Part shown: in pieces, positions 1,377-3,796 of the stretch | Numbering within the stretch: the stretch's first letter is position 1 | Layout: the number at the start of each line of letters is the position of its first letter | Assembly (NCBI GenBank): GCA_009914755.4 | Contig: CP086569.2 | Coordinates: 37,344,001-37,408,000 of the forward strand | Length of the DNA stretch: 64,000 bases | Source of the DNA: the human T2T-CHM13v2.0 reference genome, Homo sapiens | Direction of reading: 5' to 3' | Notes under the pieces: generated by a model | What the model saw: the letters and a program-made list of their open reading frames with translations, nothing else | Database searches by the model: none | What the model was told of the DNA's origin: nothing | Translations under genes and position numbers: made by a program

Positions 1377-1670
1377 TTTTTTTTTAGACAGAGTCTTGTC
1401 CTGTTGCACAGGGTGGAGTACAATGGCGCCATCTTTGCTCACTGCAACATCTGCCTCACGGGTCCAAGCGATTGTCCTCCCTCAGCCTCCCAGGTAGCTG
1501 GGACTACACCACACTGGGACTACACCAGCTGCCACCATGCCTAGCTAATTTTTTGGATTTTTAGTAGTGACAGCGTTTCACTGTATTGGCCAGGATGGTC
1601 TTGATCTCTTCACCTTGTGATCCCCTTGCCTTGGCCTCCAAATTTGCTGGGATTACAGGCCTGAGCCAAG
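1377..1670 (-). mobile_element. Alu SINE fragment, antisense to the + strand. About 12 nt are missing from its 5' end. Its poly(A) tail is the T9 run at 1377-1385.
   Basis: The reverse complement reads ...CTTGGCTCAGGCCTGTAATCCCAGCAAATTTGGAGGCCAAGGCAAGGGGATCACAAGGTGAAGAGATCAAGACCATCCTGGCCAATACAGTGAAACGCTGTCACTACTAAAAATCCAAAAAATTAGCTAGGCATGGTGGCAGCTGG...GGAGGCTGAGGGAGGACAATCGCTTGGACCCGTGAGGCAGATGTTGCAGTGAGCAAAGATGGCGCCATTGTACTCCACCCTGTGCAACAGGACAAGACTCTGTCTAAAAAAAAA. That is an Alu consensus with many CpG>TpG changes, and with a 16-bp internal tandem duplication at 1498-1529. Confidence 0.92.
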
Positions 1671-2247
1671 ATCCATATTTTTTAAATGAAAAAAAATTTC
1701 AAAGGTACTCTGCTTGGTACAATAATCAAATGTATAAACTGAGGAATAAAACATAACCATGAAACCTACTTATAACTGCATATGGAAAATACAGAGGATA
1801 ATTTTTTAAATAACATATTTTGAAAGCCTTAACTAGTAATTTGAAGAGTTGGCATTTGAAAGGCCAGTATGAATATACCTTCAAAGCAGCAACACAGGTT
1901 CCCCATGAGAAAAAGCAAACTCAGGGAAAATAAAACCACAAAGGTTCAATCTCTTCTGACCTTTGAAAGACACAGCACAGACAGTGGTCCTTAGGACGAA
2001 GAGCAGGAGACCCCTAATTCCGTCACCATGGCGATAGGGAATAAACATTGCTGGGTGAGGGCACAATCCACCTTGTGAGGTCCAACTGCTGCCAGGAAGA
2101 CAGGAGTGCTTTTACATAGACCGAAAAGTCATTGAAGGCTCAGAGTTTTGTTTCAAGAACTGAATCCCAAGCCCACACTTTATTAGGCTGCGCTTCTTAA
2201 AACAAGTTATGAGATGGGAAAAAGGGCACCCACAAACATACGTATAC
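1671..2247. other. Complex, moderately GC-rich, non-Alu segment of the monomer, taken from monomer #1. It recurs at the same offset in every unit, Alu start +294 to +870.
   Basis: Normal base composition with no short-period structure. It carries most of the unit's non-Alu CpGs: gaccgaaa, gacgaag, ccgtcacc, ggcgatag, ctgcgctt, cacacgtt. I do not recognise it as a known interspersed repeat family. Confidence 0.7.
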
Positions 2248-3796
2248 ATTATGTATATAATAATATACAGTATCATATATATAATATATATAACCTATGT
2301 ATAATATTGTTTTACATCCTGCATCTTATGTTATATATATTGTATAAAATATAATAATTGATAATATATAAGTTTTATATTTATTCAATATGACATATAG
2401 TATATATTATAATTTATGACATATATAGTATATGTTATATATCATATATAGAATATATTATACGGTTAATATACGTATTAAATATAAATTATACATTATA
2501 TATATTATATATAATATATCTGTTATATATAATACCCATTATGCATAATATATATATTATGTCTATGATATATATAGTATAAAACAACATATAATAATAT
2601 ATAATTGTATATATAAAATGCGACATATAATATATATTATATTTTATGACATATGTAATATATATTATATATTATATATAATGCGTTGTATGTATAATAC
2701 CTATATTAAATATATATTACATGACTATGTTATTAAATACATGTCACATGTGTTATATATTATTTATTTTACATAGAATATACCGGTTACATACAATATA
2801 TAGTATGTTACCTATAATGTATAATTTATTACATGTAAAATAAAGAATGCAATATATTATGTATAATTTATAATATACAATATGTGGAATGTGATATATA
2901 TAACATATAATATATGATATATGATATAGAGTATATGATATATAACATACAATATATGATACCTAATATACATGATATACAATATATATTTTATGATATG
3001 TATTCTATATGTTATATATTCTGTTATATATAACTGTTTGAAATTATATATAACTGTATACTATTTTAGGTAAATATGTAATATAATATATATAACTTTA
3101 TAATATATTATATATAACTATATATTATGTTATATATACTTTTATAACATAATTTACATAAAATATCATAATATAATATATATTATATTATTTCATATTA
3201 CATAATATATATTACATATCACCCAATATAAGTAACATACATAATATTATAATATAGATTATATTATGTTATATTAAATATCATATATATCATGTATCAT
3301 ATATTCTATAATATATATTATACATTATATAATATGTATGTTGTCTATTATGTGATATATATAACTATATATATAATTATATTATTATACATATAACTAG
3401 ATAAACATGTAATTCTACATATTTTCATTTATAATATATAGAATTATATAATCATATATAATTATTTATATTCTATAAAAAATTATATCATTATATAAAT
3501 TAGAATATATAAAAATTATAATATGTACTACAAACATATATATTATATATCATATATGATATAGTACCTTTGTTATATATCATAATACATATAAATGTGT
3601 ATTATGTTATCTATAATTATATAATTTCATATATAAGATGTATAATATGTATTATTTATTATATACGTTATGTAATATATATAGTATATATAAGCTGACA
3701 CAGGATAAATATTATATACTATGACATATAAAATATATGAGGTTATATGTTACATATAAGGCATTGCACATAACATGTAATATATATCATATATAA
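2248..3796. repeat. AT-rich (~88-90% A+T) pseudo-simple block of the monomer (satellite-I-like), taken from monomer #1. It recurs in every unit, Alu start +871 to the end of the unit.
   Basis: Built from degenerate ATATA, TATGATATA and TATATAACT-type motifs. Sparse conserved anchors are tatacggttaatatacgtattaaat, acccattatgcataat, aatgcgacatataat, ataccggttacatac, atcacccaatataagtaacatac, gtacctttgtt and gacacaggataaatatt. Confidence 0.85.

What the first reader, a model, noticed from the sequence alone, without database searches (positions are those of the whole stretch)
1377..3796. Composite monomer: a single ancestral Alu insertion sits between a complex segment and an AT-rich satellite block, and the whole unit was amplified together
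All 26 Alu copies have the same orientation and the same T9 tail junction with ...atcatatataa. They also share the same 5' end (ctgagccaag|atccatatt) and the same internal 16-bp duplication. So the Alu inserted once and the 2.4 kb unit was amplified afterwards. The Alu is far more diverged from the Alu consensus (many CpG>TpG/CpA changes) than the copies are from each other (~1-3%). That gives a clear lower age bound for the insertion and an upper bound for the last array-wide homogenisation.
Basis: seen in the sequence. Interest (0 to 1): 0.5.

Follow-up and report, generated by a model that had tools for sequence, protein, structure and literature searches.

The report
Human satellite DYZ2/HSat1B with embedded Alu

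Summary
The whole 64 kb window is one head-to-tail array of a 2,411-2,420 bp unit with 26 Alu copies. All are on the minus strand, at the same two junction positions, and all carry the same 16-bp internal duplication. The interpretation (one Alu captured once, then amplified with the unit) is supported.

It is not new. This is human satellite DYZ2 / HSat1B (RepeatMasker "HSATI"), described by Frommer et al. [quoted passage not shown] The window matches their specifics: 2,420 bp consensus, 24% GC, one CpG per ~150 bp, ACATACG at the HSATI/AT-rich junction, a 5'-truncated Alu, and units ~98% alike. A published 40-nt probe taken from the 1984 sequence, which labels only Yq, spans the Alu 5' junction and matches all 26 copies.

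Refinements: the Alu differs ~17% from AluS/Y consensi against 1.5% between copies. Its diagnostic bases are a mix of S and Y types. No target-site duplication survives. Divergence is a poor clock here because Yq12 mutates about tenfold faster than autosomes. A local two-monomer duplication with one clean recombinant monomer shows unequal exchange at work.

The parts
1..64000 (+). Uninterrupted head-to-tail array of the DYZ2/HSat1B unit: 25 complete units plus two partial ones, 26 Alu copies, no other satellite and no extra insertion.
   Evidence: Spacing is 2,411-2,420 bp, all copies in the same orientation. GC oscillates with that period. The alignment of 25 units gives a 2,420-bp consensus.
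1377..3796 (+).
   Evidence: 13 of 25 units are exactly 2,420 bp long.
1377..1670 (-). Ancient Alu lacking about its first 12 nt. Alignment to the consensi starts at position 12, and homology is clear from TGGCTCA, which is Alu position 13. The boundary is uncertain by about 2 nt. 50.5% GC.
   Evidence: Global alignment to printed Alu-J, Alu-Sx and AluY consensi and to a remembered AluSc covers consensus positions 12-289, with about 17% substitutions. A weak hit to Rfam mir-1268 (an Alu-derived family by my recollection) lies on the minus strand at 1481-1547.
1377..1385 (-). Remnant A9 poly(A) tail of the Alu, seen as T9 on the + strand.
   Evidence: T9 in 25 of 26 copies and T10 in one. The position is the same in 11 independent contigs.
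1498..1529 (-). 16-bp tandem duplication inside the Alu right arm (CTGGGACTACACCACA / CTGGGACTACACCAGC on the + strand).
   Evidence: Present in all 26 copies and in 13 of the 17 independent contigs, including the divergent L002. I did not check whether the other four contigs span that region or carry a variant of it. It appears as a 15-16 nt insertion relative to the Alu consensi and in the mir-1268 loop.
1644..1683 (-). Target of the published 'Y-chrom' padlock probe, spanning the junction between the Alu 5' end and the complex segment. The DraI site TTTAAA used with that probe lies at 1681-1686.
   Evidence: The probe sequence in PMC2212658 was taken from Frommer et al. 1984 and labelled only Yq. 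It matches 14 of 26 copies exactly and all 26 with at most 2 mismatches.
1671..2242 (+). The 'complex', more GC-rich segment (39% GC), which RepeatMasker-based papers call the HSATI part. It ends with the heptamer ACATACG (2236-2242).
   Evidence: Composition and heptamer position, matching the description. No ORF exceeds 61 aa and there is no Rfam hit.
2243..3796 (+). Extremely AT-rich block (13.6% GC) made of degenerate internal repeats (periods of about 22, 44 and 230 bp) and many imperfect inverted repeats.
   Evidence: It fits the '>85% AT region' and the enrichment in inverted repeats reported for HSat1B.
20722..37653 (+). Local higher-order block with monomer order A B [A|B] A B A B. 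Copies within type A or within type B are 99.7-99.9% identical. A and B differ at 41 fixed sites.
26354..26511 (+). Crossover interval inside the recombinant monomer (25560-27977): 13 consecutive A-type sites, then 28 consecutive B-type sites.

Best explanation
The window is a 64-kb piece of the human composite satellite DYZ2 / HSat1B ('HSATI'), most probably from the Yq12 heterochromatin.

Its 2,420-bp unit has three parts: an Alu on the minus strand, lacking about its first 12 nt, with a short A9 tail and a 16-bp internal duplication; a 572-bp moderately GC-rich segment; and a 1,554-bp block that is about 86% AT.

The Alu became part of the founder unit once. The truncation, the duplication and much of its roughly 17% divergence were acquired before the surviving copies spread. 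The whole unit was then multiplied and is continually reshuffled by out-of-register exchange between repeats (unequal sister-chromatid exchange and/or gene conversion).

Shown here: the identity with DYZ2/HSat1B, the single origin of the Alu, and a direct footprint of unequal exchange. Inferred: the Y location, the timing, and the fact that the array has no sequence-specific function beyond forming methylated heterochromatin.
For: Structure: 26 co-oriented copies have identical junction positions and the same duplication.

Match to the published description of DYZ2. The published features are a roughly 2.4 kb unit made of a 5'-truncated Alu, an HSATI part and an AT-rich part; a final consensus of 2,420 bp; ACATACG at the HSATI/AT-rich junction; 24% GC; one CpG per 150 bp; 46.8% of units of the modal length; and units more than 98% identical. 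The window gives a 2,420-bp consensus, ACATACG at consensus positions 860-866, 24.1% GC, one CpG per 151 bp, 13 of 25 units of modal length, and a mean 1.19% substitution difference to its own consensus.

Sequence-level link: a 40-nt probe derived from the 1984 sequence, which paints only Yq, matches all 26 copies across the Alu 5' junction.

Original description: Frommer et al. [quoted passage not shown]

Independent copies: 17 short contigs in unrelated 'bacterial' assemblies carry the exact junction 40-mer. They are 97.9-99.7% identical to the window consensus (one is 94%) and have the same junctions. This is the human HSat1B contamination reported.

Mechanism: an A/B dimer duplication with a clean single-crossover recombinant monomer.
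Against: The chromosome cannot be read from the window. There is no DYZ1 boundary or unique flank, and HSat1B also occurs in smaller amounts on acrocentric short arms and chr10.

The window consensus differs from three full-length independent copies at about 11 fixed sites, and its units are on average only 98.15% identical to a bulk-type copy. It is therefore a local sub-variant, either a peripheral Yq12 block or a non-Y array.

No target-site duplication supports a classical retrotransposition footprint.
Confidence: 0.95

Rival explanations
1. It is the same satellite family, but the window comes from an HSat1B array on an acrocentric short arm (chr13, 14, 15, 21 or 22) or chr10, not from Yq12.
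For: HSat1B exists on those chromosomes. The window consensus has about 11 fixed differences from three bulk-type full-length copies. At one of these sites it keeps the base found in the Alu consensus (AGACAGAGTC) where most independent copies have AGACAGAATC.
Against: HSat1B is 'almost exclusively' on the Y, with about 14 Mb there against small amounts elsewhere, so a random 64-kb all-HSat1B window is a priori from the Y. Units are 97.5-98.7% identical to the bulk type, within the range described for peripheral Yq12 blocks. The share of modal-length units (52%) resembles the Yq12 figure of 46.8%. Allelic HSat1B alignments on chr15 and chr21 are reported as often below 95% identity.
Confidence: 0.15
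2. The Alu was already present before the AT-rich block existed, and the block later grew next to the Alu's A-tail by internal tandem duplication. On this view the Alu did not insert 'between' two pre-existing segments.
For: The tail abuts the AT-rich block directly and no target-site duplication is detectable. The block is built of degenerate internal repeats with periods of 22, 44 and 230 bp, which indicates growth by duplication. The AT-rich part is the most variable in length and sequence.
Against: The tail is a short, sharply bounded A9. The neighbouring motifs are TA-alternating rather than A-rich. After about 17% divergence a 10-15 bp target-site duplication would often be unrecognisable in sequence that is 86% AT, so its absence is uninformative.
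Confidence: 0.15
3. The Alu copies result from repeated independent insertions into a hotspot in each monomer.
For: None found.
Against: All 26 copies, and the independent contigs, share the same truncation point, the same tail position and length, the same 16-bp duplication and the same roughly 17% of substitutions relative to the Alu consensi. Copies differ from each other by only 1.5%.
Confidence: 0.01
4. The array belongs to a non-human ape, or is an assembly artefact (one unit copied many times by the assembler).
For: The species is not stated. Tandem satellites are prone to mis-assembly.
Against: The window is 98-99.7% identical to contaminant copies found in 17 unrelated microbial assemblies, which the literature attributes to human DNA, and it matches a human Yq probe exactly. 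The units are not identical. They carry 406 substitution-variable columns with structured, haplotype-like sharing and a clean recombinant, which an artefactual copy-paste would not produce.
Confidence: 0.03

Closest known systems
DYZ2 / HSat1B (RepeatMasker/Dfam 'HSATI'), the 2.47-kb male-specific satellite I unit of Frommer, Prosser & Vincent 1984; re-described by Rhie et al. 2023 and Hallast et al. 2023
   Same: Unit length (2,420-bp consensus), three-part make-up, 5'-truncated Alu, ACATACG at the HSATI/AT-rich junction, 24% GC, CpG density, roughly 98% unit identity, local expansions in the array, and an exact match to a probe derived from the 1984 sequence.
   Different: Nothing of substance. 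The window is a local sub-variant with about 11 fixed differences per unit from bulk-type copies. In my comparison the Alu is as close to AluSc/Sx as to AluY and has mixed diagnostic bases, whereas the literature labels it 'ancient AluY'.
HSat1A ('SAR'), the 42-bp AT-rich classical satellite I
   Same: Extremely AT-rich, and it co-purified in the same classical satellite I fraction. The AT-rich block here has degenerate 22/44-bp periodicities.
   Different: HSat1A is a simple 42-bp repeat without an Alu or a GC-richer segment, and the literature calls it a distinct sequence family. I did not test any sequence relationship between the AT-rich block and the 42-bp unit.
Composite satellites containing transposable-element fragments (for example beta-satellite/LSau composites, and HSat3 arrays associated with Alu fragments)
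   Same: A transposable-element fragment is frozen inside a tandemly amplified unit and homogenised with it.
   Different: In HSat3 the Alu fragments are interspersed between blocks and are not locally homogenised. Here there is exactly one Alu per unit, at a fixed position.

Membership tests
DYZ2 / HSat1B | Tandem unit of about 2.4-2.5 kb; published consensus 2,420 bp | tested here: met
   Spacing is 2,411-2,420 bp, the majority-rule consensus is 2,420 bp, and 13 of 25 units are exactly 2,420 bp.
DYZ2 / HSat1B | Three parts: a 5'-truncated Alu, a more GC-rich 'HSATI' part, and a part that is >85% AT | tested here: met
   The three parts have 50.5%, 39.2% and 13.6% GC. The Alu aligns from consensus position 12-13 onward.
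DYZ2 / HSat1B | Heptamer ACATACG at the junction of the HSATI part and the AT-rich part | tested here: met
   It lies at consensus positions 860-866, which is window 2236-2242. CCCACAAACATACG is exact in 22 units.
DYZ2 / HSat1B | Composition: 24% GC and about one CpG per 150 bp | tested here: met
   24.1% GC and one CpG per 151 bp in the consensus, or per 146 bp in the window, against the values.
DYZ2 / HSat1B | Sequence identity to the published 1984 / T2T unit | tested here: met
   Only a 40-nt stretch of the 1984 sequence was available, as a padlock probe. It matches 14 of 26 copies exactly and all 26 with at most 2 mismatches. Contaminant copies of the unit are 97.9-99.7% identical. The full published consensus could not be obtained.
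DYZ2 / HSat1B | Alu subunit about 20% diverged from AluY | tested here: met
   17.3% substitutions plus 19 gap columns against a printed AluY, compared with the published 20%.
DYZ2 (the Y-linked locus specifically) | Location in Yq12, in blocks alternating with DYZ1 (HSat3) | not testable with these tools
   The window contains no DYZ1 or unique flank, and no human assembly can be searched. The indirect evidence favours the Y.
Alu (SINE1/7SL) | Dimeric Alu body alignable over both arms, with an A-rich linker and a 3' poly(A) | tested here: met
   The alignment covers consensus positions 12-289 with 229-231 matches against Sx, Sc and Y (221 against J), and includes the linker and the A9 tail.
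Alu (SINE1/7SL) | Flanking target-site duplication from L1-mediated insertion | tested here: not met
   The best flank-to-flank local match scores 5, and 85% of random AT-rich 20-mers do as well. This is expected to be uninformative at this divergence and composition.
AluY subfamily | Y-type bases at the positions that distinguish AluY from AluS | tested here: inconclusive
   Y or Sc type: the 2-bp deletion, GAGATC, CCATCC, A6 and TGTAGTCCC. S type: GGCC, ATCGCTTG (2 sites) and GGTTGC. Overall distance is 16.6% to Sc, 17.3% to Sx and 17.3-17.6% to Y. The J, Sx and Y sequences are printed. The first 60 nt of Sx, all of Sc, and a second Dfam-like AluY are from my memory.

The most novel reading that the evidence does not exclude
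The captured element may not be a plain AluY. It may be an AluSc-to-Y transitional or gene-converted mosaic: S-type bases at all three right-arm diagnostic sites, Y/Sc-type bases in the left arm. Its decay is also unusual: GC-to-AT changes outnumber the reverse by 31 to 5, and transitions and transversions are nearly equal (26:22 in the Alu, 174:207 among units). If both hold, the frozen Alu is a built-in record of the mutational regime of Yq12 heterochromatin and could be used to calibrate satellite-specific clocks.
Probability: 0.3. Interest if true: 0.2.

Novelty: already known. Interest (0 to 1): 0.07.

Why it matters
The finding itself matters little. One Alu per 2.4-kb unit is the textbook description of DYZ2/HSat1B, and recent complete Y assemblies have analysed it in depth, including the phylogeny of this Alu.

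The case is useful as a check: a reader working from raw sequence reconstructed the published architecture correctly.

The practical lessons are two. First, divergence-based dating inside such arrays needs a satellite-specific rate. Second, this sequence is a frequent human contaminant of microbial assemblies: 17 species-representative genomes in the searched collection carry it.

Tried and rejected
- Reading Frommer et al. 1984 directly (PMC318713): not held. I relied on its title as cited, and on a probe derived from its sequence.
- Rfam scan of three units at E<=0.01: only a sub-threshold mir-1268 match (an Alu-derived family by my recollection), and no SRP/7SL hit.
A 40-letter string found no paper that printed it. 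Shorter diagnostic strings did locate printed J, Sx and Y consensi. The printed Sx is scrambled in its first ~60 nt, so that part, the whole AluSc consensus and a second Dfam-like AluY are from my memory.
- Target-site duplication: the tempting pair ATCATATA / ATCCATAT (minus strand AAAAAATATGGAT / TTATATATGAT) is no better than chance in this composition. Rejected as evidence.
- Coding potential: the longest ORF in a unit is 61 aa, in low-complexity sequence.
- Independent insertions, assembly artefact and non-human origin: considered and rejected (see rival explanations).
- The metagenome and viral collection scans were not used, because the genome-contig scan already gave enough independent copies.
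Full report
**What is in the window.** The whole 64-kb window is one head-to-tail tandem array. A blastn search with the flagged Alu plus 20-bp flanks finds 26 full-length matches, all on the same strand, spaced 2,411-2,420 bp apart and 97.4-100% identical to the query. GC content oscillates with that period across the entire window. An alignment of the 25 complete units needs only 2,421 columns and gives a 2,420-bp majority consensus; 13 of the 25 units are exactly 2,420 bp long. Each unit has three compartments:
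- an Alu, 1377-1670, 50.5% GC;
- a 'complex' segment, 1671-2242, 39.2% GC;
- an AT-rich block, 2243-3796, 13.6% GC.

**Checking the stated details.** The Alu lies on the minus strand, so the T-run on the + strand is its poly(A) tail.
- Tail junction: it sits at the same position in all 26 copies. The flank is not uniformly 'atcatatataa': 9 copies have ATCATATATAA, 14 have ATCATCTATAA, 2 have ATCATCTTTAA and 1 has ATAATCTTTAA. The tail is T9 in 25 copies and T10 in one.
- 5' end: CTGAGCCAAG|ATCCATATT is exact in 23 copies, and the other three each carry one substitution.
- 16-bp duplication (1498-1513 and 1514-1529): present in every copy. 18 copies have the exact 30-mer, the others have point variants, and one has a 1-bp deletion.
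- Divergence between copies: mean pairwise substitution divergence is 2.2% for whole units (range 0.08-3.1%), 1.5% in the Alu, 1.4% in the complex segment and 2.6% in the AT-rich block.

**The Alu against subfamily consensi.** I used Alu-J and Alu-Sx as printed in PMC5218400 and AluY as printed in PMC8097388. The first 60 nt of Sx (scrambled in print), the whole AluSc consensus and a second, Dfam-like AluY are from my memory.

The array's Alu aligns from consensus position 12-13 to the tail, so it lacks about 12 nt at its 5' end. It differs by 16.6% from Sc, 17.3% from Sx, 17.3-17.6% from Y and 19.9% from J, plus 4-7 indel events that include the 16-bp duplication. Only 4 of about 22 CpGs remain. 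15-17 of the 46-49 mismatches against Sc and Y are CpG-decay changes, so non-CpG divergence is still 11-12%.

The diagnostic positions are mixed. The left arm and middle carry Sc/Y-type states: the 2-bp deletion, GAGATC, CCATCC, A6 and TGTAGTCCC. The right arm carries S-type states at all three Y-diagnostic sites (ATCGCTTG, GGTTGC). I read this as a late-S/early-Y element. That is compatible with the literature's 'ancient AluY', whose tree was rooted on AluSc8, but it cannot be resolved without Dfam.

Substitutions are strongly biased from G/C to A/T (31 against 5) and the Alu's GC content has fallen from 63% to 52%. Transitions barely outnumber transversions (26:22).

**Identity with a known satellite.** The structure is that of DYZ2 / HSat1B (RepeatMasker 'HSATI').
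- Hallast et al. describe a roughly 2.4-kb unit consisting of an AT-rich simple repeat, a 5'-truncated Alu and an HSATI part. They report a final consensus of 2,420 bp, the heptamer ACATACG at the HSATI/AT-rich junction, 24% GC, one CpG per 150 bp, and 46.8% of units at the modal length.
- The window gives a 2,420-bp consensus, ACATACG at consensus positions 860-866 (window 2236-2242), 24.1% GC, one CpG per 151 bp, 52% of units at the modal length, and a mean 1.19% difference of units from their own consensus.
[quoted passage not shown] The paper itself is not held.

**A sequence-level link.** Lohmann et al. (PMC2212658) took a 40-nt target from the 1984 sequence for a padlock probe. [quoted passage not shown] Joining the two probe arms gives AAAAAATATGGATCTTGGCT|CAGGCCTGTAATCCCAGCAA. 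It matches 14 of the 26 copies exactly and all 26 with at most 2 mismatches, against 0 matches in 100 shuffles. The DraI site they cut with (TTTAAA) lies at 1681-1686, as their design requires. That paper labels the repeat 'DYZ1', which appears to be a naming slip.

**Independent copies.** Rhie et al. reported that HSat1B is a common human contaminant of bacterial assemblies. Scanning one genome per prokaryotic species for the junction 40-mer returned 17 short contigs (312-2,497 bp) from unrelated taxa, including Mycobacterium, Vibrio, Bifidobacterium, Streptomyces and Azospirillum.
- They are 97.9-99.7% identical to the window consensus, except L002 at 94.2%.
- All carry the same 5' junction, and 13 carry the exact duplication 30-mer, including the divergent L002. 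I did not check whether the other four span that region.
- All 11 contigs that cover the tail show the same tail junction position.

The window is a local sub-variant. Its consensus differs from three full-length collapsed contigs at about 11 fixed sites, and its units are 97.5-98.7% (mean 98.15%) identical to a bulk-type copy. Most independent copies read AGACAGAATC where most window copies keep AGACAGAGTC, which matches the Alu consensus at that position.

**How the array behaves.** Of 406 substitution-variable columns, 277 are singletons and 129 are shared in haplotype-like patterns.
- Monomers 9, 12 and 14 (type A) are 99.75-99.83% identical to each other.
- Monomers 10, 13 and 15 (type B) are 99.71-99.92% identical to each other.
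- Types A and B differ at 41 fixed sites.
- Monomer 11 (25560-27977) shows 13 consecutive A-type states followed by 28 consecutive B-type states, which means a single crossover between about 26354 and 26511.

The order A B [A|B] A B A B is what an out-of-register exchange within an A-B dimer array produces. This is direct evidence for the unequal-exchange mechanism that the literature invokes for Yq12.

- No target-site duplication is recoverable. The apparent ATCATATA/ATCCATAT pair is no better than 85% of random AT-rich 20-mers. 'Inserted between two pre-existing segments' therefore cannot be shown, and the AT-rich block, with its internal 22/44/230-bp periodicities, may have grown after the Alu was in place.
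- On the classical Alu clock (about 0.15% per Myr at non-CpG sites; from my memory of Kapitonov & Jurka 1996), 11-12% non-CpG divergence would mean roughly 70 Myr. That is an AluJ-like age and conflicts with the S/Y-type diagnostic bases.
- A pedigree study reports about 2e-7 de novo SNVs per bp per generation for the male-specific Y including Yq12, against 1.4e-8 for autosomes. It attributes part of this to interlocus gene conversion and reports an unusual mutational spectrum on satellite-rich short arms.
- With that rate, the 17% (about 0.20 after Jukes-Cantor correction) would correspond to a few tens of Myr, the 2.2% between units to roughly 1-2 Myr, and the 0.1-0.3% within types A and B to roughly 0.1-0.2 Myr. 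These are my rough inferences, not measurements.
The bounds are loose, and there was no single 'last homogenisation'.

**What could not be settled.** The chromosome is not determined. The Y is favoured by abundance and by the similarity figures, and I put an acrocentric or chr10 origin at about 15%. Whether other apes carry the same Alu-bearing unit is also open: the papers I opened were silent on it and no primate assemblies are searchable here. Nothing in a unit looks coding (longest ORF 61 aa) or matches an RNA family above threshold.

**Verdict.** This is a correct reading of a well-known object. Novelty: already known. Interest: low.

Noticed in passing
window 20722-37653; crossover at about 26354-26511: Local two-monomer (about 4.84 kb) higher-order duplication, A B [A|B] A B A B. 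Copies within a type are 99.7-99.9% identical, and one monomer is a clean single-crossover recombinant (13 A-type sites, then 28 B-type sites). This is a direct footprint of out-of-register exchange.
   Followed up: yes
L001-L017 (genome-contig hits; for example L001 Mycobacterium sp. LZSC01000004.1, L005 Actinomadura cremea BMRF01000089.1): 17 species-representative 'bacterial' assemblies contain short contigs that are this human satellite unit, 94-99.7% identical to the window consensus. Three contigs are about one unit long, which looks like collapsed tandem repeats. This is human contamination of microbial genome records, as Rhie et al. reported.
   Followed up: partly
consensus offsets 17, 545, 560, 1272, 1374, 1585, 1945, 2008, 2062, 2109, 2277 and 2415 (add 1376 for coordinates in the first unit): At these sites the window's array consensus differs from the full-length independent copies: from all three at 11 sites, and from two of the three at offset 17. 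At offset 17 the window keeps the G found in the Alu consensus (AGACAGAGTC) where most independent copies have A. The window is therefore a distinct local sub-variant, possibly a peripheral Yq12 block.
   Followed up: partly
Alu 1377-1670 and the whole array: The substitution spectrum is unusual. Transitions and transversions are nearly equal (26:22 for the Alu against AluY; 174:207 among the array's biallelic sites), and the Alu shows a strong G/C-to-A/T bias (31 against 5). This fits the atypical mutational regime reported for satellite heterochromatin.
   Followed up: partly
L002 (NZ_NKRE01000200.1, 382 bp): This independent copy is only 94.2% identical to the window consensus, yet it has the same Alu 5' junction and the same 16-bp duplication. 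It may be an acrocentric or otherwise old HSat1B variant. It shows that these features predate the family's diversification.
   Followed up: partly
window 2243-3796 (AT-rich block of each unit): The block has degenerate internal periodicities of about 22, 44 and 230 bp and 31 imperfect inverted repeats, with arms up to 96 nt at 76% complementarity. I did not test for any relationship to the 42-bp HSat1A unit.
   Followed up: partly
window 1481-1547 and 3901-3967, minus strand: A sub-threshold Rfam match to mir-1268 (33.9 bits against a gathering score of 83), a family I recall as Alu-derived. The 16-bp duplication falls in the hairpin loop. This is almost certainly just Alu homology.
   Followed up: no
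units starting at 13471 (2,411 bp), 40074 (2,414 bp) and 42488 (2,413 bp), among others: Unit lengths vary from 2,411 to 2,420 bp because of small deletions, nearly all in the AT-rich block (25 of 28 indel columns). The deletions were not characterised individually.
   Followed up: no
literature: PMC2212658: This paper calls the 2.47-kb satellite I unit 'DYZ1', although the sequence it targets (from Frommer et al. 1984) is the DYZ2/HSat1B unit. It is a naming inconsistency to be aware of when searching the literature.
   Followed up: yes
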